A DNA stretch of 64,000 bases from an uncultured Lachnospiraceae bacterium. Its GTDB lineage: Bacteria; Bacillota; Clostridia; Oscillospirales; CAG-272. This document shows, one piece after another, positions 2-55,028 of the stretch. The position numbers and the translations under genes were made by a program. The stretch's first letter is position 1. Every line of letters begins with the position of its first letter. The notes under the pieces are model-generated. The model was given only the letters and a program-made list of their open reading frames with translations. It was not told where the DNA came from and made no database searches. The DNA is taken from contig CAZXAU010000001.1 in the NCBI GenBank assembly GCA_964638675.1, positions 56,966-120,965 of the forward strand. The letters run 5' to 3'.

Positions 2-577
2 GCATCGATCGGTATATACGGCATAAGAAACAGACATCTGCGTTCAGGCGTTATGCTTGTGACCAATATCCCGATGATGAATCCTGATATTGTAACCGGT
101 GTTTCGCTCATGCTGCTCTTTGTCTTTATCGGCAGAGTTATTGGTTTTGCCGGTGATTCGCTGTCATTTGTAACGCTTCTGATTGCACATATCACATTTA
201 ATATTCCGTATGTTATACTCAATATTATGCCGAAGTTCAATCAGCTTGACAATTCAATAGTCGAAGCAGCGACCGATCTCGGCTGCACTCCTGCTCAGGC
301 GTTTTTTAAGGTGATATTCCCTGAGATCATGCCGGGTGTATTTTCGGGAGCGTTGATGTCCTTTACTCTTTCGCTTGACGATTTCGTAATAAGCTATTTT
401 ACAAACGGAGCTGATTTTCAGACGCTTCCGCTTTATATCTACAGCATTACCAAAAAGAATGTCAAGCCAGATATCTACGCACTTTCGACGATAATCTTTG
501 TTGTCATACTTCTGCTTCTTCTTGTGAATGCACTTCATTCAAAATCGGACAAGACTAACATTATCAGAAAAAACTGA
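2..577 (+). CDS. potC: Spermidine/putrescine ABC transporter permease PotC, 5'-truncated by the window edge
   Basis: The frame is open from base 2. The protein is multi-span and hydrophobic, with the ABC-permease EAA loop (EAATDLGCTPAQAFFKVIFPEIMPG). A PotD-type binding protein gene follows directly. Confidence 0.85.
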   Translation, partial: ASIGIYGIRNRHLRSGVMLVTNIPMMNPDIVTGVSLMLLFVFIGRVIGFAGDSLSFVTLLIAHITFNIPYVILNIMPKFNQLDNSIVEAATDLGCTPAQAFFKVIFPEIMPGVFSGALMSFTLSLDDFVISYFTNGADFQTLPLYIYSITKKNVKPDIYALSTIIFVVILLLLLVNALHSKSDKTNIIRKN

Positions 578-31753: not shown

Positions 31754-31761
31754 TCAATTGA

Positions 31762-31850
31762 CGATACAACAGGGGTGCCTTTTGGCTGAGATGGGAAACC
31801 GAACCCTTTTAACCTGATACGGATAATGCCGGCGTAGGGAGCAATGTACC
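31762..31850 (+). promoter_or_regulatory. TPP (THI-box) riboswitch aptamer
   Basis: GGGGTGC...GCTGAGA...ACCC...AACCTGATACGGATAATGCCGGCGTAGGGA matches the conserved THI element core. A weak AT-rich hairpin plus T-run follows at about 31848-31872. A thiamine transporter gene lies downstream. Confidence 0.9.
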
Positions 31851-32029
31851 GTGAAAAATTTTTCGGTTTTTCGATCGACCTGACTGTAGATTTGTTTTTG
31901 ATTTGATTTTGCGATCGGATCTGTTCCGGGATTTTCTTTTCGGTAATAAAGTTCTGCTGCGGCTTGCCGCGGCTTTTGTTTTATTCGGGAAATAGATATA
32001 TATACTGTACCGTCAGAAAGGAATTTCTT

Positions 32030-37556: not shown

Positions 37557-38679
37557 TTTCTATAAACATTTTATCATATGTTTTTCCCGAATGGTCTGTG
37601 ATCTGACAGCCTATGCCGTCTTGCTTTACTGTCAGAGCGAGGCCTTTATAGCCAACAACCTGTCCGGCATCATCCCTTACGAGCATTCCCGAAACTGCGA
37701 TAGGGCAGGGCAGAAGTCCATAGCTGTCAAGAGCTCCTTTTTTGTCCGAAAATACCGTTTTGTGAAGGTGACCCGATATCATGAGATGCGGCTTTATATT
37801 TTCACCGATAAGTTTCAGCCATTCACGGTATATATCGCCTTCGATATCAAAGGGAGGCTGATTTTTAAGGCAGAAGGGAATATGACTTATGACGATTCTG
37901 TACTCGGCAGAGCTTTCCATATACTCCGATTTTCTATTTTCAATGACTTTTTTTATAAATTCGGTTTCTGCCTTGCGGAATATATGACATACATCGGTGC
38001 TTCCGTATTCGGGATGTGAATCGGGCTTATCCTCGCCGCAGTCAAGAACGATTCCCCATATTTTCCCGAGTCTGAATGTATAATAAGGTGTTCCGTTTTC
38101 GTTTGGGGTGTAATTTTCGAGCATTTCGGCGTATCTTCCACGGAGATCATGATTTCCTCTTGAAAATATACAGGGATGCTCTCCTTTTGTTATCTCTTCG
38201 CAAAGAGCAAACATAAGATCAAAGTTTTTTATATTGTCACTGCTGTCGTTGATATCACCGTTAAGTATCAGAAGATCTATATCATCCCCGAAGTATTTTC
38301 CTGCCATAGCGGGATATTCGTAATTCCCATGCGTATCTGAGAGTATGTAAATGTTGATATCACCGTCTTTTCTGACAGGGACGAAATTGAAGGATATCTC
38401 CACGGTCTCTTCGCTCTGCGTGAAATACGGCTTTCTTTCTTTGATTTTTCTGTATCTGAGAGTGTACATACCTGCTTCATCCAGCTTTGAGATCGGAACC
38501 TTGATCTTGTGGACGAGCCCGAGCGATCTGCGTATACCACCCGAATGGTCAAAATATTCGCTGTCACCGATTTTTATACTGAGAAGAATCTCGCTCTTTG
38601 TCAGAACAATAATTTCATAATTATTTCCGCAAGCAAACACCGCAGGCGTAAAGCGTATCTCTTTAAGTTCTTTTTTCAT
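37552..38679 (-). CDS. Calcineurin-like metallophosphoesterase
   Basis: Motifs ILSDTHGN, LNGDINDS, SRGNHD, SGHLH. The start is taken as ATG 38679 (MKKELK); the alternative ATG 38691 lies inside repeat B. Confidence 0.8.
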   Translation of the reverse strand: MKKELKEIRFTPAVFACGNNYEIIVLTKSEILLSIKIGDSEYFDHSGGIRRSLGLVHKIKVPISKLDEAGMYTLRYRKIKERKPYFTQSEETVEISFNFVPVRKDGDINIYILSDTHGNYEYPAMAGKYFGDDIDLLILNGDINDSSDNIKNFDLMFALCEEITKGEHPCIFSRGNHDLRGRYAEMLENYTPNENGTPYYTFRLGKIWGIVLDCGEDKPDSHPEYGSTDVCHIFRKAETEFIKKVIENRKSEYMESSAEYRIVISHIPFCLKNQPPFDIEGDIYREWLKLIGENIKPHLMISGHLHKTVFSDKKGALDSYGLLPCPIAVSGMLVRDDAGQVVGYKGLALTVKQDGIGCQITDHSGKTYDKMFIEK

Positions 38680-38812
38680 ATTTATAACCATAGCTTTCGC
38701 ATTGCGAAAGCTTCCTTTCCTGAGGAATTGTGGCTGGTTTTGTGAAGCAAAATCGCCGCCGCGACGGCGGCGAAAGCCACAAAACGCCGTTTGAAAGATT
38801 TATCTTTCAAAC
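38680..38812 (-). repeat. Intergenic repeat family B, copy 1 (ends at the phosphoesterase start codon)
   Basis: On the minus strand: GTTTGAAAGATAAATCTTTCAAAC - GGCGTTTTGTGGCTTTCGCC - hairpin - GGCGATTTTGCTTCACAAAACCAGCC - GAAAGG - AAGCTTTCGCAATGCGAAAGC - ATGGTTATAAATATG. Confidence 0.9.
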
Positions 38813-38820
38813 TTCTCTCT

Positions 38821-39759
38821 TTATTTTGTTCTGCTCAGCTTTTCGTTTGTCCAGCTGATAATGTCGTCATATATCTGTTCTCTGTTTATCTCACTCAGAA
38901 GATCGTGCCGTGCCTCGGGGTATATGTTTGCTTCAATATCAGATATTCCGAATGATTTATATGCCGCACCGATCTTCCTGACATCCTCGCCGTACATTCC
39001 GACAGGATCATCTTCGCCCGAGAGTAATAATATAGGCAGCCCTTTGTCGGTCTTTTCATAGGTCTCATTGCTGTTTGCCCTGAGCTGAAGGGACAAAAGA
39101 GCGGCGAGTGATGAAACGGTAAGACGAAAACCGCATTTTGAGTCGGATATATATTCATCTGCTTTATTTTTATCTCTTGTAAGCCAGGCAAACGGTCTGC
39201 CCCTTTCGCATCTTGAATTGTATGAGTCGAAAATAAGCTTTTCGCAGAATTTTGAATAGCTCCTTCTTCCATTTGACTGCGCTAGGGTTTCGGCAAGTGC
39301 AAGTGCAAATCTTGCCGATGTCCGGGGCGTTCCGCTTCCGCAAATGAGTGCGGCATCAAACAATCCCTTTTTTGCACGGGATATCGCCATTCGTGCAATA
39401 AGTGATCCCGACGAGTTGCCGAAGATCACAAGCGGAAGTCCTTCATGCTCTGCCTTGATACGCTCTGCATCGTAAAGAATATCCCCGACAAGTGCATCAG
39501 CGCCCGCTTCGAGCGGAATATGTCCTAAGTCTTTAATATCTGTGACAGAATCGCCGTGTCCGATATGGTCGTGGCAAACAGATATATAGCCGTTGTCGCA
39601 GAGATGATCCATAAAAGGGACGTATCTTTTTTTATGCTCAGCCATTCCGTGAGAAATGATGAATATGCCCTTAGGCTCGGAATCGGGCATCATCTTTATG
39701 CCACGAAGGGTAGATATGTCATCGCATGACTGAATTGTGTATTCTGTAATTCTGTTCAT
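38821..39759 (-). CDS. Alpha/beta hydrolase (lysophospholipase / monoacylglycerol-lipase-like)
   Basis: HGMAEHKKRY oxyanion region, nucleophile elbow GNSSGS, and a C-terminal ARHDLL His motif. The start is probably ATG 39759 (MNRITEY) rather than the TTG at 39786. Confidence 0.8.
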   Translation of the reverse strand: MNRITEYTIQSCDDISTLRGIKMMPDSEPKGIFIISHGMAEHKKRYVPFMDHLCDNGYISVCHDHIGHGDSVTDIKDLGHIPLEAGADALVGDILYDAERIKAEHEGLPLVIFGNSSGSLIARMAISRAKKGLFDAALICGSGTPRTSARFALALAETLAQSNGRRSYSKFCEKLIFDSYNSRCERGRPFAWLTRDKNKADEYISDSKCGFRLTVSSLAALLSLQLRANSNETYEKTDKGLPILLLSGEDDPVGMYGEDVRKIGAAYKSFGISDIEANIYPEARHDLLSEINREQIYDDIISWTNEKLSRTK

Positions 39760-41352: not shown

Positions 41353-43956
41353 TTATATGTTTTCGTCAAGCCACTTCCATCTGCTTTCGATAAAATCTCC
41401 AAGATATTTTATCTGTTTTGCATAGGTGTTGTATTGCTTGATAGACGAATCCTCACAGCCTACACGCTTGTTCAGAATATCCCACTTTTCAAAGTTGTAG
41501 TCTGCCGAGCGTTCGACAAGTGCCGAATATGTGTTGACCGTGTTTCTCATGTTTTCAAGTATGTCGTACTTGACTTCGTCCCATCTTAGCTTGAAGAGCT
41601 CACGGAAATATGGGTCGTTGATAAGATAAACCATCCAGTTATCCCAGATATAGTCGCTTGTTGTGTCTGCTGTTGCCCAGGTCGAATATGTCTTGTCATC
41701 CTTCCAGAAATTTCCGAAAGCGTTATCGAAATCCCACAGCGGCCCCATGGTGAGTTTGCCGCCTGCATCTTTTGTAAAATAACAGCTTCTTCTGAAGCAA
41801 CAGTCTATATTATAGCTGAGCTCCTGAATGATCACCCAGTCAATCAGGGCACCCATATCTATATATTCCCAATAGCCGTCGCTTGCCATGACCGATTTAT
41901 CGGCGTTTACCGTCCAATTTTTGATAAAAGCGACCTGCTCTTTTGTGAGCGTTCCCTCATCGGGGGCTTTGACCTTTACATACTTGCAAAGGGTCGTATA
42001 GAAGCAGGTTTCATTCCATACATCGGCAGACGATGTTCCGCCGATCTCAAGAAGATACCCTGTATCGGTATCGGAGCCGTTGTCGGCAAGCTCGACTCTT
42101 CCCGAATTTGCCTGAAGCTGTTCGCCCATCGTGTATACACCGACATACTCTCCGTTGAAAAAGAGGTCAACAGGGTACTGAGTCGGGGTATATGAAAGAT
42201 TTGAAAGAATTTTTCCTGCCTCGGTTGCAACGGTGTTCCTGATAAGTGATTTATCCGAATAATTCGCAAGCAGTACCCATTGTTTATGAGCCTCAAGACC
42301 GAAAACTGATACCTTTGAATCAAATTTGATCTTATACGGCTTTTTGTCCCACTTCCAGGTGGAATGCCCACGTCCTCGTATCTGTATATTTTGCAGATCT
42401 ATCTCATCAAAATACGGGCAACCGTCGGTATTCATATAAAAGGTTGCGTTTTGATATTCTTCGTTTGATTCAACCGCAGAGCCGCTCTGTGTATTGATTA
42501 CGACCACAGGAAGAGCAGAGGGCTGATAATCCGCTTTGATAAGATATCTGCTTGTCTTGCCGTTTTTGTCGGTGACATTCAGATAGCATCCGCTGTCATA
42601 AAGCAGATTGACCGTTCCATCATCGCTGAGAACCGTTTTATCAAATTCTACCTTTCCGCCGTTTGTGGCAGTGTATGTGAGTATAGCACTCTCGAGTGTA
42701 CGTGTATCAACGATGCAGTCGATCGTTGCACTCAGTACATAGCCGTCTGCACGGAAAAATATATCACGGGTGAGATTTTTATTGTTCTTTTTGAGAAGAG
42801 ATATCATTGAAAGCACCGAAGTACTCTCACCGCCGAGCACGTAGTCGCTGGGGGCAATGCCGTTCACAGAAAGAACATCCATGACCGAAACTATATCAAG
42901 CATTGAAATTCCCTCATTCCTCGGGATGCTCCATGTGATCTGAGCCTGTGCGGCATTGATTTTTATCGGAATATCGGGAAGCGTAACATTCTTGCCTGAT
43001 GAAAATGTCATTTTACATTTTTGGTCGGTGTCAATATTTATGGCTTTTTCGAGTGTGACGCCGTCAGCAAATTCAATCGAAACAGGCATACTGAAGTCAA
43101 TTTCGCTTTCGATCGTATAATTGCCCGAGAGCGTGAGCTTCGTATCGGGGTAAAGGTGCGGCAGGCACTCGTTATCAATAAGATCGAGCAATTCTTTTTC
43201 GCTGAATATCTTTATACTGTTGAAGTCAAGAACCCTTCCGTTGTATGCATACACGCGAAGATAGTAGGTCGGATTTGCGACTATCTTTTTTATTGTCGGA
43301 ATTTTGAGTGTCAGATTTTCGGCTTCGGCAAATATATTACTCGGAGAAAATTCTCCGTCGCCCTCTTCGCTGATTCGCAGTGTTCCTTCAAGGGCGGTAG
43401 ATATATAAAGCATTTCGGGCGAAAAGACACAATCCTTTATGCCGATAGTCAGAGGTCTTTCAATATTAAAGCGGCCCGAAGATATATTGATCGGTATAAT
43501 GACAGTGTCATACAGAGCAGTTGATGAAAGCATTACAGCCAATTCATCGGCGTTGAAGGGGTAGCCTACAAGTACAGTCGAGCCATCCTTTTCGTACCTG
43601 ACCTCGATCGAAATAAGCGAGCTTTTTTCTACGGCAAAGCTGTGCTTTTCTCCTGCCTCAACTATAAAATTCTTTGAAACTACATCATCTCCCGAGAGAC
43701 ATTTGAGCGTAAAGTCATATCGGACATCCGAAGTGTTTTCAACTTCGATCGTTTCGTTTCCGAGCTCGGTAATAACGCTTTCGGGTGGCTCAGGCGTTCT
43801 GAATATTGTACCTGTCTGTGAGCCGGTGACAGTAAATGAGAGCGATTCACTCGGTGGGGGATCTTCTGTATGACAGCCCGGAAAGGCGAGAATTATCAGG
43901 AGCAGAATAAGAGCAAAAACAGATATATGTCCGATCCTTGTTTTTGATTTTTTCAT
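41353..43956 (-). CDS. CotH-kinase-family protein with N-terminal signal peptide and Ig-like region
   Basis: Signal peptide ending AFPGC. The C-terminal half has typical CotH blocks (IRGRGHSTWKWDKKPYKIKF, WVLLANYSDKSLIRN, PVDLFFNGEYVGVY, LWDFDNAFG). Confidence 0.75.
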   Translation of the reverse strand: MKKSKTRIGHISVFALILLLIILAFPGCHTEDPPPSESLSFTVTGSQTGTIFRTPEPPESVITELGNETIEVENTSDVRYDFTLKCLSGDDVVSKNFIVEAGEKHSFAVEKSSLISIEVRYEKDGSTVLVGYPFNADELAVMLSSTALYDTVIIPINISSGRFNIERPLTIGIKDCVFSPEMLYISTALEGTLRISEEGDGEFSPSNIFAEAENLTLKIPTIKKIVANPTYYLRVYAYNGRVLDFNSIKIFSEKELLDLIDNECLPHLYPDTKLTLSGNYTIESEIDFSMPVSIEFADGVTLEKAINIDTDQKCKMTFSSGKNVTLPDIPIKINAAQAQITWSIPRNEGISMLDIVSVMDVLSVNGIAPSDYVLGGESTSVLSMISLLKKNNKNLTRDIFFRADGYVLSATIDCIVDTRTLESAILTYTATNGGKVEFDKTVLSDDGTVNLLYDSGCYLNVTDKNGKTSRYLIKADYQPSALPVVVINTQSGSAVESNEEYQNATFYMNTDGCPYFDEIDLQNIQIRGRGHSTWKWDKKPYKIKFDSKVSVFGLEAHKQWVLLANYSDKSLIRNTVATEAGKILSNLSYTPTQYPVDLFFNGEYVGVYTMGEQLQANSGRVELADNGSDTDTGYLLEIGGTSSADVWNETCFYTTLCKYVKVKAPDEGTLTKEQVAFIKNWTVNADKSVMASDGYWEYIDMGALIDWVIIQELSYNIDCCFRRSCYFTKDAGGKLTMGPLWDFDNAFGNFWKDDKTYSTWATADTTSDYIWDNWMVYLINDPYFRELFKLRWDEVKYDILENMRNTVNTYSALVERSADYNFEKWDILNKRVGCEDSSIKQYNTYAKQIKYLGDFIESRWKWLDENI

Positions 43957-44190
43957 AATGGTTCTAAATCTCCGTATACTTTTTTCATTCGATCTATTAT
44001 AAAATCAAGCTGATGTTTACCATAATCCATTATCGATTATAACCGATTATATCGGTCATGTCAATAGATAAAAAGTTAATAAGAAGTGAAGTTTGGGCGA
44101 AAAGAATGTATTATTGCTTTCGATATCTGTGAATTACTTGAAATTGATGATAAATATTGATTATATCAGATTATTTTTTTCAAAAAACTG

Positions 44191-44219
44191 TTTACAAAAC
44201 AAAGAGAATGTAATATAAT
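44191..44219 (+). promoter_or_regulatory. Promoter of cysS
   Basis: TTTACA, a 17-nt spacer, then TATAAT. About 175 nt upstream of ATG 44402. Confidence 0.65.
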
Positions 44220-44268
44220 GTAGGTAATTTATAATACATAAAATTCAATAAATACAAAAGGATAAAAG

Positions 44269-44401
44269 GTTTGAAAGATTAATCTTTCAAACAGCGTTTT
44301 GTGGCTTTCGCAACCGAAACGGTGGCGATTTTGCTCTGCAAAACCAGCCCCAATTCCGAAAGAAAGGAAGCTTTCGCAATGCGAAAGCTATGGTCAAAAA
44401 T
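44269..44401 (+). repeat. Intergenic repeat family B, copy 2 (ends at the cysS start codon)
   Basis: Same block order as copy 1. The palindrome is GTTTGAAAGATTAATCTTTCAAAC and the variable hairpin is ACCGAAACGGT. It ends ...GCGAAAGCTATGGTCAAAAATATG. Confidence 0.9.
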
Positions 44402-45847
44402 ATGAAGCTTTATAATTCACTTACAAGAACACGCGAGGAGTTTGTGCCGAGAGAGGAAAACAAGGTCAACATATATACGTGCGGTCCTACGGTATATCAC
44501 TTTGCACACATAGGAAATCTCAGAACATATATTATGGAGGATATTCTCGAAAAATATCTGAGACATATCGGATATGATGTCACGAGAGTAATGAACATAA
44601 CAGATGTCGGACACCTGACCAGCGATGCCGATACAGGTGAGGATAAGATGCTCAAGGGCGCAAAACGTGAGCATAAGACGGTCATGGAGATCGCCAAGTT
44701 CTATACCGACGCCTTTTTCTCCGATTGCAAAAAGCTGAACATAAAAACCCCCGACATCGTGAAGCCGGCTACCGAATGTATCGATGAATTCATCAAGGTC
44801 ATATCGTCACTCCTTGATAAGGGATATGCATATGAAGCGGGCGGAAATATCTACTTTGACACTTCAAAGCTCGAAAATTATTATGTTTTTCATAATTTTG
44901 AGGAGGAAGACCTTGAAGTCGGTGTGCGTGACGGTGTTGAGGCTGACGGAAATAAGCGGAACAAGGCGGATTTTGTACTTTGGTTTACAAAATCGAAATT
45001 TGACGATCAGGAACTCAAATGGGACAGTCCGTGGGGCGTGGGATATCCCGGATGGCATATCGAATGCTCATGCATTTCTATGAAATATCTCGGCGAATAT
45101 CTCGATATTCACTGCGGAGGCATTGATAACGCATTCCCTCACCACACCAACGAGATCGCGCAGAGCGAGGCATATCTCGGTCATAAGTGGTGCAATTATT
45201 GGTTTCACGTTCTTCACCTCAATACAAACAGCGGCAAAATGTCGAAATCAAAGGGAGAATTCCTCACTGTTTCTCTGCTTGAGGAAAAGGGCTACGATCC
45301 TATGGTATACCGTATGTTCTGCCTGCAATCTCACTATCGCAAATCGCTCGTATTTTCATGGGAGAATCTTGACAATGCAAAGATCGCATATACTAAGCTT
45401 GTTCAGAAGATCGCCGCAATAGCTGACGAGGGAGAGACAGATCCCGAAATGCTCGCAAAGCTGATATCCGATTTCAGATCGGCACTTGACAACGACCTTA
45501 ATACATCGCTTGCGATCACATCAATATACAATGTACTGAAATCGTCGGCAAACGGACATACTAAGCTTGAGGCGATCCGTATGTTTGATACAGTCCTCTC
45601 GCTCGATCTTTTGAAGGCTGCTGTAAAAATCAGAGAGGAAAACAAAAAAGCACAGTCTGAAAAGACAGATGCCGCAGAATCGGACGATCCGTTTATCCGC
45701 ATGATAAAAGAGCAGATCGAGCTTCGCAAAGCCGCAAAGAAAGCAAAGAATTATGCAGAAGCGGACAGAATAAGAAATGAGCTTGAACAAAAGGGAGTTA
45801 TCCTGACCGACACGGCACAGGGTACAGTATTTACCGTAAAAGTCTGA
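44402..45847 (+). CDS. cysS: Cysteine--tRNA ligase
   Basis: Canonical N-terminus MKLYNSLTR at ATG 44402. HIGH motif (HFAHIGNLR) and KMSKS (GKMSKSKG). 481 aa. Confidence 0.96.
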   Translation: MKLYNSLTRTREEFVPREENKVNIYTCGPTVYHFAHIGNLRTYIMEDILEKYLRHIGYDVTRVMNITDVGHLTSDADTGEDKMLKGAKREHKTVMEIAKFYTDAFFSDCKKLNIKTPDIVKPATECIDEFIKVISSLLDKGYAYEAGGNIYFDTSKLENYYVFHNFEEEDLEVGVRDGVEADGNKRNKADFVLWFTKSKFDDQELKWDSPWGVGYPGWHIECSCISMKYLGEYLDIHCGGIDNAFPHHTNEIAQSEAYLGHKWCNYWFHVLHLNTNSGKMSKSKGEFLTVSLLEEKGYDPMVYRMFCLQSHYRKSLVFSWENLDNAKIAYTKLVQKIAAIADEGETDPEMLAKLISDFRSALDNDLNTSLAITSIYNVLKSSANGHTKLEAIRMFDTVLSLDLLKAAVKIREENKKAQSEKTDAAESDDPFIRMIKEQIELRKAAKKAKNYAEADRIRNELEQKGVILTDTAQGTVFTVKV

Positions 45848-45989
45848 AAAATACATTTTTCAGACACCGTTTTGTGGCTTTCGCCTTGCGGTCTCCGCAA
45901 TCTGTACGGCAGCGATTTTGCTTCGCAAAACCAGCCCCAACTCCGGGGGAAAGGAAGCTTTCGCATAAGCGAAAGCAATGGTCATAAAA
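45844..45989 (+). repeat. Intergenic repeat family B, copy 3 (ends at the lipoprotein start codon)
   Basis: The conserved arms and the start-proximal hairpin (AAGCTTTCGCATAAGCGAAAGC) are present. The 24-nt palindrome is replaced by the hairpin CTGAAAAATACATTTTTCAG, which overlaps the cysS stop. Confidence 0.85.
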
Positions 45990-47306
45990 ATGAAAAAAAG
46001 ATTGAACCATTTATTTTCGATAACTGTTGCCGCCGCTTTGGTGATCCTGTCTGTATTGTCTCTGGCATCATGCAGTGTCATAGATGATTTTCAGCGGCTA
46101 GGTCTGCTCGGATGGCTGAATACCGGCGTAAAAAAGGGTGAAACCACGGCCACACCCACATCGGGTGTAACCGATTCGCCTTCTTCAACCCCGGGCAGCT
46201 CATCGGCCGACCTTACCATTGCGCCGTTTCCGACGGTTTTACCTGTTATTCCCCGATTTCCCGATATGCAGACGTTGTTATCGTCATTGGAACTCGATTT
46301 GACCAACGGGCGAAGTTTTATTATGTACATTTCCGATACGCCGAATGTCTATGCATTATACGGCGAAACTGTTGAAAAACAGAATTCGCTGATATCCGAA
46401 AAATTCGGATTTACGATCTCATCTCATAAGGAGAGTGCTGAGACTATAAATAAATTGGTTTCTGGCGAGGATTATTTTGCAGATCTTCTGTACATTCCGC
46501 TTTCTGAGGCTGTTTCACTTGCAAATAAAGGACTACTCATCCCATTTAATGAAGGGCAAGGAAATGGAAATGAGGAATTGTTTTATATAACGAACAGAAG
46601 CGATACTGCTTATTATGCTGTTCCCTCATTCAGCGTACCGTATGAGAGCAATATAGTGATATACTGCAACACAGATATACTTGCAAGAATGGGAAAGTAT
46701 ACCGACATCACGCAGGTGACGTCAAACGGAAGCTTTGATATCGGGCTTTTTTCACAAATGCTGAATATTTCGTCACTTCCGGAGGGAGTATGCCCTATTG
46801 TCAGTCGATTTGACAGCGGCAAGCTTGAAGGAATCTTATCGGCGGCGCAGGGATATACGGAAAGCAGTATTTCGGAGAGTGTTCTTGATGCTCTTACTGT
46901 AAAAAGCAGTGAAGATGCTCTTAGTGAATTCTATACGGGTAAGGCACTTTTCATGATTGCAGATATCTCAGATATAAGAGAGCTTTATGATTCGTATGAT
47001 TCATATGCTATATTGCCCATGCCTAAGGCAGATGCATCCGACAAGGATTATCCTTCACTGTTTGATTCGGACACTCTTTATGTTTATGCGATTCCGAAAA
47101 GTGCAGTGAATCTGTCGGCGGCAAAATCGTATATAAAGGCTCGCTGTTTCGCATCAAAATATCAGTTCAGATATGAGTTTGCCGAATCACTCTATTCGTA
47201 TTATCTCAGACAGGAGAGCTCGACAGCTCATCTCGGGGTATCACTTTTCAGCGGATTGTGTGATATTTGCGAGAATACTGAAAACACAGATGACACAGGT
47301 GAATGA
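45990..47306 (+). CDS. Hypothetical lipoprotein (solute-binding-protein-like size and context-free)
   Basis: Start at ATG 45990 (MKKRLNH). Lipobox LASC, a Ser/Thr/Pro linker, and a body of about 400 aa with no motif I can name. Confidence 0.6.
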   Translation: MKKRLNHLFSITVAAALVILSVLSLASCSVIDDFQRLGLLGWLNTGVKKGETTATPTSGVTDSPSSTPGSSSADLTIAPFPTVLPVIPRFPDMQTLLSSLELDLTNGRSFIMYISDTPNVYALYGETVEKQNSLISEKFGFTISSHKESAETINKLVSGEDYFADLLYIPLSEAVSLANKGLLIPFNEGQGNGNEELFYITNRSDTAYYAVPSFSVPYESNIVIYCNTDILARMGKYTDITQVTSNGSFDIGLFSQMLNISSLPEGVCPIVSRFDSGKLEGILSAAQGYTESSISESVLDALTVKSSEDALSEFYTGKALFMIADISDIRELYDSYDSYAILPMPKADASDKDYPSLFDSDTLYVYAIPKSAVNLSAAKSYIKARCFASKYQFRYEFAESLYSYYLRQESSTAHLGVSLFSGLCDICENTENTDDTGE

Positions 47307-53600: not shown

Positions 53601-54914
53601 TCAAAGAGGAATGGAATAATAGTTATCGCCGGCTATAATGGGAGTAGTGAAGAAAACTCTTGAGAGCTCAACGAGGGCAGCGGTGTCAGCTATGCCGGCA
53701 GTTTCATATGAAGAGTGCATAGCGAGCTGAGGCAGACCCACATCCGCAGAATTAATTGAAACCTTGGTGGTGGCAATTCCTCCGAGAGTGGAGCCGCCTG
53801 CCATATCGGATCGATTTGTATAAACCTGATATGGTATGTCGTTTTTGTTGCAGAGAAGTTTAACTACAGATTCGGAGACCGAATCTGTTGTATAACGCTG
53901 AGAAGCATTAAATTTGATTACGACACCGCCGTTGAGGGTAACACGGTTCTGTGAATCGGCGTATTCAGGGTGATTAGGATGAACTGCGTGAGCGTTGTCG
54001 CACGAAAGGAGGAAGGATGAAGCAAGAAGACAACGGAATTCCTCATCTGAAGCAGAAAGAACGATTCGGCGAAGAGTGTCAAAAAGGAATGTAGAAGCCG
54101 CACCCTGCTTGGTTGAGCTTCCCACCTCTTCGTTGTCGAAGCAGGCAAAAACAGGAACAGCTGATGAAGTGTGAGACGAAAGGAAGCCTTTGAGATTAGA
54201 GAAAGCGGATTGAAGATCGTCGAGAGATCTTGACGAAATGAATTCATCTGATGAACCCCAGATTTTTCCTTCAGAGCGGTTGTAAACGAAAAGATCCGTC
54301 CCGAGAATTTTTTCCTTGTCGACATTTGCGGCATCGGCAACTGCATCGATAATACTTTTTTTATCAGTGCCGCAGGAATAGAGCGGAACTGTATCGACAG
54401 AAGCATTGTAATTAAAGCCGGTATTGACAGAACCGTTCATGTGAATGGCTACATTGGGAATAAGGAGAATATCACGGTCAACATTGACAAGCTTGATCTC
54501 AATTCCGCTGTCGGTTTCGACAACGATTCTTCCGGCGACGGAAAGTGGTCTGTCAAGCCAGGTCGAGCAGATCATTCCACCGTAACGCTCGGTGTTGATG
54601 CGGACGAAGTCATTCCCCGAAAGCTCGCATTTGTCTTTGAGCTTGTAGCAGGGAAAATCGCTGTGCGAAGCGGCAATATTGAAGCCGGTTATCTCAGCGT
54701 TCGGAATGCGGAAAGCGATAATTGAAGAGTTGTTACGGATAACGAAGTATTTACCGCCGTTTTCAAGATTCCATTTAGAGCCTTCGCAAAGCTTGGTGTA
54801 GCCATCCGATTCGAGATAGTTTTTAATTGTATCTATAGAGTGAAAGGCACTCGGAGAAGCTTTGATAAAATCAAGAAGCTCACGGGAGAGCTCGGCGTTG
54901 TTGTATTCTTTCAT
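53601..54914 (-). CDS. M18-family aminopeptidase
   Basis: 437 aa. The N-terminus LLDFIKASPSAFHSIDTIKNYLESDGYTKL, plus AASHSDFPCYKLK, DNEEVGS and C-terminal HSSYETAG, are typical of M18 (aspartyl aminopeptidase-like) enzymes. Confidence 0.85.
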   Translation of the reverse strand: MKEYNNAELSRELLDFIKASPSAFHSIDTIKNYLESDGYTKLCEGSKWNLENGGKYFVIRNNSSIIAFRIPNAEITGFNIAASHSDFPCYKLKDKCELSGNDFVRINTERYGGMICSTWLDRPLSVAGRIVVETDSGIEIKLVNVDRDILLIPNVAIHMNGSVNTGFNYNASVDTVPLYSCGTDKKSIIDAVADAANVDKEKILGTDLFVYNRSEGKIWGSSDEFISSRSLDDLQSAFSNLKGFLSSHTSSAVPVFACFDNEEVGSSTKQGAASTFLFDTLRRIVLSASDEEFRCLLASSFLLSCDNAHAVHPNHPEYADSQNRVTLNGGVVIKFNASQRYTTDSVSESVVKLLCNKNDIPYQVYTNRSDMAGGSTLGGIATTKVSINSADVGLPQLAMHSSYETAGIADTAALVELSRVFFTTPIIAGDNYYSIPL

Positions 54915-55028
54915 ATTTTTATATGACCACCTTTCTTGTGGAATTTGGGCTGGTTTTGTGGAGCAAAATCGCTGTTACTATAACGGCGAAAGCCACGAAA
55001 CGCCGTTTGAAAGATTTATCTTTCAAAC
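54915..55028 (-). repeat. Intergenic repeat family B, copy 4 (ends at the M18 aminopeptidase start codon)
   Basis: On the minus strand: GTTTGAAAGATAAATCTTTCAAAC - GGCGTTTCGTGGCTTTCGCC - GTTATAGTAAC - AGCGATTTTGCTCCACAAAACCAGCC - CACAAGAAAGGTGG - TCATATAAAAATATG. It lacks the start-proximal hairpin. Confidence 0.9.

What the first reader, a model, noticed from the sequence alone, without database searches (positions are those of the whole stretch)
44269..44401. Family B: conserved arms pair around a hairpin that changes sequence but keeps structure, and a second mutually exclusive pairing reaches the start-codon region
The left arm GTTTTGTG can pair with the right arm in every copy:
- CACAAAAC in copy 1
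- TGCAAAAC in copy 2 (two G-U pairs)
- CGCAAAAC in copy 3 (one G-U pair)
- GTTTCGTGG / CCACAAAAC in copy 4 (one mismatch)

Between the arms each copy has a different self-complementary insert:
- GCCGCCgtcgcGGCGGC
- ACCGaaaCGGT
- TTGCGGtctCCGCAA
- GTTAtagTAAC

The structure is kept while the sequence is free, which is the classic signature of a functional hairpin.

In addition, the conserved GGCTTTCGC of the left arm is complementary to GCGAAAGC in the 3' half of the start-proximal hairpin in copies 1-3. Two alternative folds are therefore possible. One of them would open the hairpin that sits between the GAAAGG purine run and the ATG, which is a riboswitch-like or thermometer-like layout.
Basis: partly seen in the sequence, partly recalled or inferred. 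Interest (0 to 1): 0.65.

Follow-up and report, generated by a model that had tools for sequence, protein, structure and literature searches.

The report
Portable ribosome-binding-site repeat before cysS
The hairpin-rich stretch in front of cysS is real, but it is one copy of a repeated, apparently mobile element found in a group of uncultured gut Clostridia; the element sits just before the start codons of unrelated genes and brings its own ribosome-binding site, so it is not a cysS-specific riboswitch.

Summary

The element is a 110-150 nt interspersed repeat. I found 65 more copies in about 25 Oscillospiraceae-type genomes. Every copy has the same orientation as the next gene and ends at its start codon. 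The genes served are unrelated (77 Pfam families among 44 proteins).

Compensatory changes support three hairpins: the 5' hairpin HP1, the variable tip, and the start-proximal hairpin HP3. They do not support the conserved arms. The alternative pairing has no such support in the main family, but one divergent subfamily keeps it.

An insertion origin is supported by:
- a host ribosome-binding sequence (Shine-Dalgarno, SD) left stranded just upstream of most copies;
- two empty-versus-filled site comparisons;
- absence of the element from 83 related cysS loci.

The element carries its own SD. In most copies a 21-nt hairpin fills the gap to an extra in-frame ATG, as in phage T4 genes 38 and 25. 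Copies at the same site in sister species are more conserved than neighbouring synonymous sites, so they are not junk.

Closest known relatives are mycobacterial MIRUs and Neisseria REP2. The family is absent from Rfam. No transposase, terminal inverted repeats or target duplication were found.

The parts
44191..44219 (+). Promoter-like site TTTACA-17-TATAAT. It would place the whole of copy 2 in the cysS 5' UTR. It is not part of the repeat.
   Evidence: Consensus scan, 11 of 12 matches. The upstream gene is divergent (ORF 41353..43956 on the - strand, CotH).
44258..44262 (+). Weak SD-like AAGGA six nt upstream of the element (SD1). I read it as the remnant of the gene's original ribosome-binding site.
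   Evidence: Sequence. Family-wide enrichment of AGGAGG-like 6-mers 2-6 nt upstream of HP1.
44269..44292 (+). HP1, the 5'-terminal hairpin of copy 2: GTTTGAAAGATT/AATCTTTCAAAC.
   Evidence: 12-nt perfect inverted repeat. Three of its ten pairs covary across the family.
44296..44344 (+). Long hairpin of copy 2. Arms GTTTTGTG (44296-44303) and TGCAAAAC (37-44); GC/GC; inner stem TCGC (08-11) with GCGA (25-28); variable tip ACCGaaaCGGT (13-23). Contains the left arm GGCTTTCGC (03-11).
   Evidence: Covariation is found only in the inner stem and tip.
44345..44357 (+). Conserved single-stranded linker CAGCCCCAATTCC. Its TTCC can pair with the GGAA of the element's SD.
   Evidence: Nearly invariant in the alignments, though partly fixed by the search pattern. 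The TTCC/GGAA helix has no covariation.
44358..44370 (+). The element's own Shine-Dalgarno run (SD2), GAAAGAAAGGAAG.
   Evidence: In the short-form copies the same run is AAGGAGG or AAGGTGG, 6-12 nt before the ATG.
44369..44389 (+). HP3, the start-proximal hairpin AGCTTTCGC-aat-GCGAAAGCT. It fills the whole gap between SD2 and the first ATG. Its 3' half can instead pair with the left arm.
   Evidence: (three covarying pairs).
44390..44404 (+). ATGGTCAAAAATATG: an extra ATG (AUG1, 44390) followed by 12 nt and the native cysS ATG (44402), in frame. It would add M-V-K-N to CysS.
   Evidence: ORF list. CysS domain match. Family statistics.
45842..45992 (+). Copy 3. It runs from the cysS stop codon (TGA 45845-45847, inside HP1) to the ATG of a lipoprotein/solute-binding gene (45990). 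AUG1 is at 45978. The tip carries an extra insert.
   Evidence: (100.8 bits).
38677..38812 (-). Copy 1. It lies between a hydrolase gene (stop at 38821) and a metallophosphoesterase gene (AUG1 38691, ATG 38679).
   Evidence: (128.5 bits).
54912..55028 (-). Copy 4, the short form without HP3. SD2 is AAAGGTGG, 12 nt before the ATG (54914) of an M18 aminopeptidase gene.
   Evidence: (110.3 bits). Independent assemblies of this gene break exactly at HP1.

Best explanation
The region is one copy of a non-autonomous interspersed repeat that acts as a portable translation-initiation leader.

**Origin (inferred).** The element spread by insertion into the few bases between a gene's Shine-Dalgarno (SD) sequence and its start codon, very often at tight junctions inside operons. 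The host's old SD (SD1) is left stranded upstream.

**How it works (inferred from anatomy).**
- The element supplies a replacement SD (SD2, GAAAGGAAG), held single-stranded between stable hairpins.
- In the short form, SD2 lies at normal distance from the ATG.
- In the long form, the 21-nt hairpin HP3 fills the gap to an extra in-frame ATG. SD2 and that ATG come together only when HP3 is folded, as in the split initiation regions of phage T4 genes 38 and 25. Most proteins would then gain four residues, M-V-I-x.
- The upstream hairpins (HP1 and the long hairpin with the variable tip) shield the new ribosome-binding site from its surroundings. They may also be what the unknown mobilising machinery recognises.

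**Shown versus inferred.**
- Shown: the repeat family, its fixed position and orientation, covariation in three hairpins, empty sites, and the extra conservation of copies at orthologous sites.
- Inferred: insertion as the mode of spread, use of SD2 and AUG1, and shielding as the role of the hairpins.
For: **Family and position.**
- There are four copies in the window.
- There are 65 more in about 25 genomes of uncultured Clostridia, Flemingibacterium and Massiliimalia, with up to 12 per fragmentary genome.
- All are co-oriented with the next gene and end at its start codon.
- The downstream genes are unrelated: 77 Pfam families among 44 proteins, including gyrA, ispG, argS, pth, smpB, ruvB and pfk.

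**Stranded host SD.**
- 34 of 63 copies have at least 5 of 6 matches to AGGAGG within 20 nt upstream of HP1. The figure is 8.5% for random 20-mers and 26% for crude gene starts.
- The spacing to HP1 is 2-6 nt, against 5-9 nt from SD to ATG at ordinary genes.
- The upstream gene's stop codon usually lies 2-20 nt before HP1, or inside it.
- Two copies that sit upstream of an intact SD (L028, L034) have no SD1, and their SD2 and HP3 have decayed.

**Empty versus filled sites.**
- L147 has the same cysS-to-lipoprotein gene order. It has a plain 34-nt junction with AAGGAG where the window has copy 3.
- Phage contig L154 reads ...GGAGAGTACATGATATG, where its relative L152 has the element between the TGA and the ATG.
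- 80 + 3 related cysS loci lack the element.

**Repeat behaviour.**
- Identity is 86-99% within a genome and 77.5% between genomes.
- Independent assemblies break exactly at HP1.

**Structure.** Covariation supports HP1, the tip and HP3.

**Constraint.** Three orthologous pairs are 98.5, 100 and 94.7% identical in the element. Synonymous sites of the adjacent gene are 81, 88 and 77% identical.

**Start region.**
- AUG1 is ATG in 40 of 49 long-form copies.
- It lies 12 nt before the gene's ATG in 41 of 46.
- It is in frame with no intervening stop in 34.
- The following codons read GTN (all four third bases occur) and ATA/ATT.

**Precedent.** An SD-to-AUG gap of 22 nt bridged by a hairpin is documented for T4 gene 38 (PMC3014915).
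Against: **Mobility is not demonstrated.**
- There are no terminal inverted repeats.
- There is no clear target-site duplication: a 2-nt match in 24 of 51 copies is largely explained by base composition and subfamily.
- No transposase or full-length parent element was found.
- The empty sites come from relatives at only 69-83% protein identity, so loss in the relative cannot be strictly excluded. L169 shows what looks like a decayed copy at the orthologous site of copy 4.

**The constraint is broader than the model needs.** Conservation of orthologous copies covers the whole element, including HP1 and the long hairpin. That is more than a mere replacement ribosome-binding site requires. It points to an additional function or to gene conversion between copies.

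**AUG1 is not universal.** It is mutated in 7 of 49 copies, out of frame in 4 and followed by an in-frame stop in 2.

**Sampling bias.** Copies were collected with an exact 21-base pattern, which inflates the apparent conservation of the right arm and linker.

**No expression data.** There are no transcript, probing or translation data.
Confidence: 0.6

Rival explanations
1. One reading: a riboswitch-like or thermometer-like switch. In one fold the left arm GGCTTTCGC is locked in the long hairpin and HP3 forms. In the other fold the left arm pairs with GCGAAAGC, HP3 opens, and initiation changes. A ligand, temperature or another signal shifts the balance.
For: - The alternative pairing is possible in 94.5% of cells.
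- It is a perfect 9-bp match in copy 2.
- It is nearly as stable as the best fold in copy 2: -45.3 against -46.1 kcal/mol.
- A divergent subfamily (L058:6720-6897) changed the left arm to GACTTCGCG and both strands of HP3 to GACTTCGC/GCGAAGTC. The left arm therefore stays perfectly complementary to the 3' strand of HP3, at a cost of only 3.4 kcal/mol.
- A second small switch is possible: ATTTTGC-nnn-GCAAAAC can form instead of the arm pairing.
- Orthologous copies are under constraint.
Against: - There is no covariation for the alternative pairing in the main family: 0.038 against 0.037 in shuffles.
- HP3 variants in L004, L018 and L063 are not followed by the left arm.
- The energy gap ranges from 0 to 22.6 kcal/mol, mean 5.3, which is not a tuned switch.
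- Seven copies lack HP3 altogether.
- The genes served share no function, so no single metabolite makes sense.
- The left arm and the 5' strand of HP3 being the same sequence could equally reflect an internal duplication.
Confidence: 0.15
2. The copies are binding sites of one trans-acting factor, such as an RNA-binding protein, a small RNA or the ribosome itself. Together they form a global post-transcriptional regulon. The element spread once and was then taken over for coordinated control, as proposed for Neisseria REP2.
For: - Unpaired stretches such as GGCTTT, GATTTTGC and CCAGCCCCAATTCC are strongly conserved across species.
- Orthologous copies are more conserved than synonymous sites across the whole element.
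- Each genome has its own variant of the 'free' hairpins, as expected if they co-evolve with a partner.
- Precedent: REP2 sits before 14 co-regulated genes (PMC3184786).
Against: - No candidate factor was identified.
- Conservation of the right arm and linker is inflated by the search pattern.
- The four copies in the window genome have four different tips, which argues against recognition of the tip.
- Recent amplification or gene conversion explains the genome-specific variants just as well.
Confidence: 0.2
3. MIRU-like translational coupling. The stranded host SD (SD1) drives a short bridge reading frame that starts at the TTG/GTG in HP1 (positions 3-5). That frame runs through the nearly stop-free element and ends next to the gene's ATG, handing the ribosome on.
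For: - TTG or GTG occupies HP1 positions 3-5 in 52 of 53 copies, 5-7 nt after SD1.
- The element has almost no stop codons in any frame between the HP1 loop and its 3' end.
- In the commonest length class the frame ends at TAA, 2 nt before the ATG.
- MIRUs are reported to insert at start codons with a coupled internal reading frame (PMC12548453).
Against: - The stop of this frame has no fixed place. It lies within -12 to +3 of the ATG in only 14 of 53 copies. It is fused in frame in 10, ends early in 14 and runs out of frame into the gene in 15.
- The start is never ATG.
- Tip lengths are not multiples of three.
- Copy 2 has a TAA after three codons.
- The window copies have weak or no SD1.
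Confidence: 0.1

Closest known systems
Mycobacterial interspersed repetitive units (MIRUs)
   Same: Both are short repeats found inside operons and oriented with the genes. MIRUs are reported to be mobile and to insert at start codons in a way that keeps the downstream gene expressed (PMC12548453; PMC3184786). Empty and filled sites are seen between relatives in both cases.
   Different: - MIRUs work through an internal reading frame coupled at -4 nt. Here no fixed coupled frame exists; the element instead brings its own SD and usually an extra ATG.
- MIRUs occur as tandem arrays with short direct repeats at the flanks. These copies are single, and no target duplication is evident.
- There is no sequence similarity, and the phylum differs.
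Neisseria REP2 repeats (and Borrelia IR-A)
   Same: Neither has terminal inverted repeats. [quoted passage not shown]
   Different: - REP2 also carries a promoter. No promoter-like site lies inside these copies, and most sit inside operons directly after an upstream stop codon.
- There is no sequence similarity.
- Co-regulation of the served genes is unknown here.
Split translation-initiation regions of phage T4 genes 38 and 25
   Same: The SD and the start codon are 21-22 nt apart, and a hairpin fills the gap and brings them together. For T4, weakening the hairpin lowers initiation (PMC3014915).
   Different: - In T4 it is a single-gene feature. Here it is a module of a repeat present at dozens of genes.
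- Here the bridged ATG is an added one, 12 nt upstream of the native start.
- Function is untested here.
Classical bacterial MITEs, and structured repeats such as BOX, RUP, Correia and bcr1
   Same: All are short, multi-copy, non-coding intergenic elements able to fold into stable RNA hairpins, with genome-specific subfamilies. (The comparison with bcr1 rests on my own knowledge.)
   Different: - No terminal inverted repeats and no clear target duplication.
- The position is fixed to within a few bases of the start codon, and the orientation is fixed.
T-box leader, the usual cysS control in Firmicutes
   Same: It is a structured leader ahead of an aminoacyl-tRNA synthetase gene.
   Different: No match to the T-box model or to any other Rfam family, even at E-value 10. 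The same element precedes non-synthetase genes.

Membership tests
Riboswitch / RNA thermometer (cis-regulatory leader) | Associated with a functionally coherent set of genes | tested here: not met
   44 downstream proteins hit 77 different Pfam families. The four window genes are CysS, a solute-binding lipoprotein, a metallophosphoesterase and an M18 peptidase.
Riboswitch / RNA thermometer (cis-regulatory leader) | Secondary structure supported by compensatory changes | tested here: met
   Met for HP1, the tip and HP3: 11 pairs and 101 cells changed on both sides, 0 of 500 shuffles as high. Not met for the conserved arms.
Riboswitch / RNA thermometer (cis-regulatory leader) | Mutually exclusive second fold that controls the SD or start, supported by covariation | tested here: inconclusive
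   The fold is possible in 94.5% of cells but covaries no more than shuffles. It is kept in one divergent subfamily. Its energy cost ranges from 0 to 22.6 kcal/mol.
Riboswitch / RNA thermometer (cis-regulatory leader) | Conserved in front of orthologous genes across related species | tested here: not met
   0 of 80 cysS loci at 70-77% identity, and 0 of 3 at 78-80%, carry it. It is retained only between very close species, at 93-96% protein identity.
T-box leader | Match to the T-box covariance model upstream of the synthetase gene | tested here: not met
   Rfam 15 scans found only a TPP riboswitch elsewhere in the window, at the gathering threshold. Nothing relevant was found at E-value up to 10 over 44100-46100.
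MITE (miniature inverted-repeat transposable element) | Short, multi-copy, non-coding, dispersed | tested here: met
   110-150 nt; 4 copies in 64 kb; up to 12 per fragmentary genome. Tip lengths are not multiples of three, so no conserved peptide is encoded.
MITE (miniature inverted-repeat transposable element) | Terminal inverted repeats | tested here: not met
   The inverted repeats in copy 2 are all internal: HP1, HP3, and left arm with HP3. The two termini are not complementary.
MITE (miniature inverted-repeat transposable element) | Target-site duplication | tested here: inconclusive
   The best case is a 2-nt match (AA or TA) in 24 of 51 copies, largely explained by composition and subfamily. 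One suggestive TC...TC case is L049.
MITE (miniature inverted-repeat transposable element) | Empty and filled homologous sites | tested here: met
   L147 against copy 3. Phage L154 against L152. The relatives are only 69-80% identical in protein.
MITE (miniature inverted-repeat transposable element) | A parent insertion sequence with the same ends | not tested
No longer version with a reading frame was seen in the loci held.
MIRU-like intercistronic repeat | Lies at start codons inside operons, co-oriented with the genes | tested here: met
   The upstream same-strand stop is mostly 2-20 nt before HP1 or inside it. All copies end at the start codon.
MIRU-like intercistronic repeat | Internal reading frame coupled to the downstream start at a fixed overlap | tested here: not met
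   The frame opening at the TTG/GTG in HP1 ends within -12 to +3 of the ATG in only 14 of 53 copies. The other stops are scattered.
Neisseria REP2-like repeat | [quoted passage not shown] | tested here: met
   SD2, AUG1, HP1, the long hairpin and HP3 are all present.
Neisseria REP2-like repeat | Carries a promoter | tested here: not met
   The consensus scan finds no sigma-70-like site inside copies 2 or 3. The nearest is 50 nt upstream of copy 2. Other promoter types are not covered by the scan.
Split initiation region (T4 gene 38/25 type) | Over-long SD-to-AUG spacing filled by a hairpin | tested here: met
   21 nt from GGA to AUG1, all within a 9-bp stem and 3-nt loop. The stem covaries.
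Split initiation region (T4 gene 38/25 type) | The hairpin is required for efficient initiation | not testable with these tools
   This needs reporter or toeprint assays.

The most novel reading that the evidence does not exclude
The element is a domesticated mobile leader that works as a genome-wide translational switch. Dozens of unrelated genes acquired the same cassette. In it, a hairpin-bridged SD and start codon is turned off when the left arm captures the 3' strand of that hairpin. The balance would be set by a common signal, such as temperature, a trans-acting factor, or ribosomes arriving from the upstream gene. Each protein it serves would also receive the same M-V-I-x N-terminal extension.
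Probability: 0.12. Interest if true: 0.8.

Novelty: new variant of a known kind. Interest (0 to 1): 0.5.

Why it matters
**If the main reading is right.** This would be a clear example, in abundant but uncultured gut Clostridia, of a selfish or semi-domesticated repeat that lands between a gene's ribosome-binding site and its start codon. It would avoid harming the gene by carrying a replacement ribosome-binding site. That is the same problem MIRUs are thought to solve by coupling, solved in a different way.

**Practical consequences.**
- Gene callers will disagree on start codons at these genes; there are two in-frame ATGs 12 nt apart.
- Assemblies break at the repeat.
- A motif search that looks at a single genome can mistake the repeat for a riboswitch.

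**Possible further value.**
- The hairpin-bridged SD and start codon at dozens of genes would be a natural test set for how ribosomes cope with split initiation regions.
- The compact hairpin-SD-hairpin layout resembles the insulated ribosome-binding-site parts used in synthetic biology.

Tried and rejected
**Searches that found nothing relevant.**
- Known RNA family: Rfam 15 at the gathering threshold, and at E-value up to 10, gave nothing.
- More copies in the window: with filters off, the model finds only the four. Weaker hits are the palindromic HP1 read on the other strand.
- Annotated phage and plasmid collections: no match.
- Literature searches found no description of this family.

**Features tested and not supported.**
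- Promoter inside the element: none by consensus scan.
- Terminator: HP1 and, on the opposite strand, HP3 are flagged as terminator-like. HP1's T-run is short and set off from the stem, and the opposite-strand site has no gene to serve. Both were noted and not pursued.
- Anti-SD helix TTCC/GGAA: paired in 90% of cells but with no covariation.
- A third fold, with the 5' arm pairing to GGTCATAAA at the 3' end, appeared in one minimum-energy structure. The subfamily with GGTGAT breaks it without compensation.
- Coding potential: tip lengths break the frame, and the bridge frame has no fixed end.
- Target-site duplication scan over all boundary offsets: inconclusive.
- An IS200/IS605-type origin (hairpins just inside the ends, strand bias): considered but not testable. 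The two end hairpins differ in sequence, and no conserved flanking tetranucleotide was seen.

**Empty-site test for copy 2 itself.** Gene order is not conserved. Relatives have cysE directly before cysS with a plain stop-SD-ATG junction.
Full report
**1. What is in the sequence**

The region 44269-44401 lies between a promoter-like site and the cysS coding sequence. The promoter-like site is TTTACA-17-TATAAT at 44191-44219. CysS was identified by its tRNA-synt_1e domain, E-value 4e-95.

Reading 5' to 3', the region contains:
- a perfect 12+12 nt hairpin, HP1 (44269-44292);
- a long hairpin (44296-44344), made of the arms GTTTTGTG/TGCAAAAC, a GC/GC step, an inner stem TCGC/GCGA and the tip ACCGaaaCGGT;
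- a C-rich linker, CAGCCCCAATTCC;
- a purine run, GAAAGAAAGGAAG (SD2);
- a 9-bp hairpin, HP3 (44369-44389);
- the sequence ATGGTCAAAAATATG, in which the second ATG (44402) is the usual CysS start (MKLYNSLTR...) and the first (44390) is in frame with it.

The shared 16-mer is far above chance. The folds are more stable than shuffled sequence, with z-scores from -2.8 to -6.8.

**2. It is a repeat family, not a cysS leader**

Rfam 15 has no family for it, including the T-box family.

An exact-pattern scan of one genome per species returned 66 loci. Of these, 65 are real copies and one, in a Rhizobiaceae genome, is a chance match inside unrelated sequence. All real copies come from uncultured Clostridia labelled Acutalibacteraceae, Oscillospiraceae or Flemingibacterium, plus the isolate Massiliimalia massiliensis. 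Fragmentary genomes hold up to 12 copies each.

A covariance model built from 54 copies behaves as follows:
- it finds only the four copies in the window, at 100 bits or more, with the next hit at 20 bits;
- it recovers the pattern-found copies, plus one further copy (in L033), in the fetched loci.

Every copy points the same way as the next gene and ends at its start codon. The genes served have nothing in common:
- in the window they are CysS, a solute-binding lipoprotein, a metallophosphoesterase and an M18 aminopeptidase;
- elsewhere, 44 proteins hit 77 Pfam families, including gyrase A, IspG, ArgS, peptidyl-tRNA hydrolase, SmpB, RuvB, phosphofructokinase, ABC transporters and a siphovirus protein.

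None of 80 metagenomic cysS loci at 70-77% protein identity carries the element. Neither do the three closest loci, at 78-80%. In those relatives cysS mostly follows cysE with an ordinary stop-SD-ATG junction.

**3. Which structures are supported**

On 47 long-form copies, the fold consisting of HP1, the long hairpin and HP3 gives these figures:
- 94.4% of cells are paired;
- 11 pairs have changes on both sides;
- 101 cells have changes on both sides, against 34.5 in shuffles (0 of 500 shuffles as high);
- the covariation score is 0.152, against 0.075 in shuffles and at most 0.068 when the partners are slid.

The double changes fall in three places:
- HP1, 3 pairs (for example GTTTGA.., GTGTGA.., GCGTGA.., GTCTGA..);
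- the inner stem and tip, 5 pairs;
- HP3, 3 pairs.

The conserved arms show only one-sided changes (U-G to C-G or U-A) and no double change. Their right half was fixed by my search pattern, so this says little either way.

It covaries no more than shuffles do (0.038 against 0.037). Forcing it costs 5.3 kcal/mol on average, with a very wide range: 0.8 for the copy in the finding, 15 for copy 1, and up to 22.6.

One piece of positive evidence exists. A divergent subfamily in Flemingibacterium has changed the left arm to GACTTCGCG and HP3 to GACTTCGC...GCGAAGTC. It is seen at L058:6720-6897, with a second, cut copy at the start of L031. The left arm thus stays perfectly complementary to the 3' strand of HP3, at a cost of 3.4 kcal/mol. 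This is a single lineage. It would also be explained if the left arm and the 5' strand of HP3 were simply kept identical as an internal duplication.

The TTCC/GGAA pairing over SD2 has no covariation.

**4. Evidence that it arrived by insertion between the SD and the start codon**

*A stranded host SD.* Just upstream of HP1 most copies have a variable, host-like SD:
- 34 of 63 have at least 5 of 6 matches to AGGAGG within 20 nt, against 8.5% of random 20-mers and 26% of crude gene starts;
- its distance to HP1 is 2-6 nt, a few bases shorter than the 5-9 nt between SD and ATG at ordinary genes in the same loci;
- it often directly follows the stop codon of the upstream gene (TAAGGAG...), and in five copies, including copy 3, the upstream gene stops at the TGA inside HP1.

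*Copies upstream of an intact SD.* Two copies that sit further upstream, ahead of an intact SD (L028, L034), have no such sequence before HP1, and their SD2 and HP3 have decayed.

*Two empty-versus-filled comparisons.*
- Relative L147 has CysS at 80% identity and the same cysS-to-lipoprotein gene order. It has a 34-nt junction, TAATAAggcactatcccAAGGAGatattccccgtaatATG, where the window has copy 3 running from the cysS stop to the ATG.
- Phage contig L154 reads ...ATGGAGAGTACATGATATGGGA.... Its relative L152 has the element exactly between ...ATGGAGGCATGA and the ATG of the homologous gene.

*A decayed copy.* At the site of copy 4, a relative with 83% identity and the same TatD-to-M18 gene order has what looks like a decayed, internally deleted copy.

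*Repeat behaviour.*
- Copies within one genome are 86-99% identical, against 77.5% between genomes. The window genome is an exception at 74%, with four different tips.
- Two independent assemblies of the M18 gene stop exactly at HP1, as expected at a repeat.

*What is missing.* There are no terminal inverted repeats, no convincing target duplication, and no parent element or transposase. The mechanism of spread is therefore unknown.

**5. How it most likely works**

The element replaces the ribosome-binding site it disrupts.
- In seven short-form copies, including copy 4, SD2 is a strong AAGGAGG or AAGGTGG 6-12 nt before the ATG.
- In the long form, SD2 is followed at once by the 21-nt HP3, and the first ATG follows at once after that. 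This gap is the same length as the 22 nt of T4 gene 38, where the intervening hairpin brings the SD and AUG to a working distance and is needed for efficient initiation (PMC3014915).
- That first ATG is present in 40 of 49 distinct long-form copies. It lies 12 nt before the native ATG in 41 of 46, and is in frame with no intervening stop in 34.
- The next two codons vary mainly at their third base: GTC/GTG/GTA/GTT, then ATA/ATT. This fits a translated M-V-I-x extension, but it rests on few independent changes.
- The exceptions (AUG1 mutated in 7, out of frame in 4, followed by a stop in 2) show that the native ATG must also be usable.

I infer, but have not shown, that the stable hairpins on either side keep SD2 exposed and shield it from surrounding sequence.

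The copies are not decaying junk. In three pairs of copies at orthologous sites in sister species, the element is 98.5, 100 and 94.7% identical. Synonymous sites of the adjacent gene are only 81, 88 and 77% identical. The constraint covers HP1 and the long hairpin too. Either these parts have a function beyond shielding, such as a binding partner or a switch, or copies correct each other by gene conversion.

**6. A rival considered: MIRU-like coupling**

A TTG or GTG sits at HP1 positions 3-5 in 52 of 53 copies, at a good distance from the stranded SD. The element is almost free of stop codons. However:
- the frame it opens ends at no fixed place, and only 14 of 53 stops lie next to the ATG;
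- the start is never ATG;
- tip lengths shift the frame.

This is therefore not a defining feature.

**7. Comparison with known elements, and novelty**

The closest described elements are these:
- MIRUs are said to insert at start codons with a coupled reading frame, so that the gene stays expressed (PMC12548453).

This family shares the position and the 'do no harm' logic. It differs in several ways:
- it uses its own SD, usually with a hairpin-bridged extra start codon;
- it has no promoter;
- it has no fixed coupled frame;
- it is unrelated in sequence and host.

It is absent from Rfam and from the annotated phage and plasmid collections, and I found no paper describing it. I rate it a new variant of a known kind.

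**8. Limits**

- Copies were gathered with an exact 21-base pattern, so diversity is under-sampled and the right arm and linker look more conserved than they may be.
- The window's own genome and its close relatives are not in the searchable collections; the nearest CysS is 80% identical.
- All statements about function are inferred from sequence.

Noticed in passing
window 31761-31857 (+): A TPP riboswitch (Rfam RF00059; 64.1 bits against a threshold of 54.3; E-value 2.9e-10). It is the only Rfam family in the window that reaches its curated score.
   Followed up: no
L058:6720-6897 (+), and L031 from about 50 to 110 (+): A divergent subfamily of the element in Flemingibacterium merdigallinarum. 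It has a 10-bp arm pairing, a 13-bp tip hairpin and a duplicated ATTCTGCTTCGC. The left arm and HP3 have both changed to GACTTCGC. It scores only 29.6 bits with the family model.
   Followed up: partly
L023:2950-3190 (+): A rearranged copy. It has three partial tandem copies of an HP1-like hairpin. These are followed by SD2, HP3 and ATGGTTA, fused directly to the long hairpin of a second unit.
   Followed up: no
L015:618-769 and L031:1050-1201: Two Flemingibacterium copies carry an extra perfect hairpin (CTACTGCTTTGCAGTAG / CTGCTGCAATGCAGCAG) inserted in the left arm. This splits GGCTTTCGC, so the alternative pairing with HP3 is interrupted there.
   Followed up: no
L152:1365-1500 (same as L022, L150, L151): A copy lies inside a phage or prophage structural operon, before a DUF859 siphovirus gene. 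HP3 is replaced by an unrelated 28-nt hairpin, GTTTTTGCGGCTATATAGCCGCAAAAAC. The related phage L154 has an empty site.
   Followed up: yes
window 44369-44389 and 45957-45976, minus strand: Read on the opposite strand, HP3 followed by the complement of SD2 (TCCTTTCTTT) scores as an intrinsic-terminator-like site. It could in principle stop antisense transcription running out of the gene.
   Followed up: no
window 44036-44064 (-) and 43957-44268: The 310-nt AT-rich spacer between the CotH gene and cysS holds a perfect TTGACA-17-TATAAT on the minus strand, facing the CotH gene. It lies back to back with the cysS promoter-like site. In relatives L148 and L149, an HD-domain gene and cysE lie between CotH and cysS; they are missing here.
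   Followed up: partly
L169:700-792: The TatD-to-M18 junction of a relative (83% identity) has an HP1-like palindrome overlapping the TatD stop codon, and GTTTTGCAC-ATTTTGC-ACACAAAAG. This looks like a decayed copy with the centre deleted (18.6 bits).
   Followed up: partly
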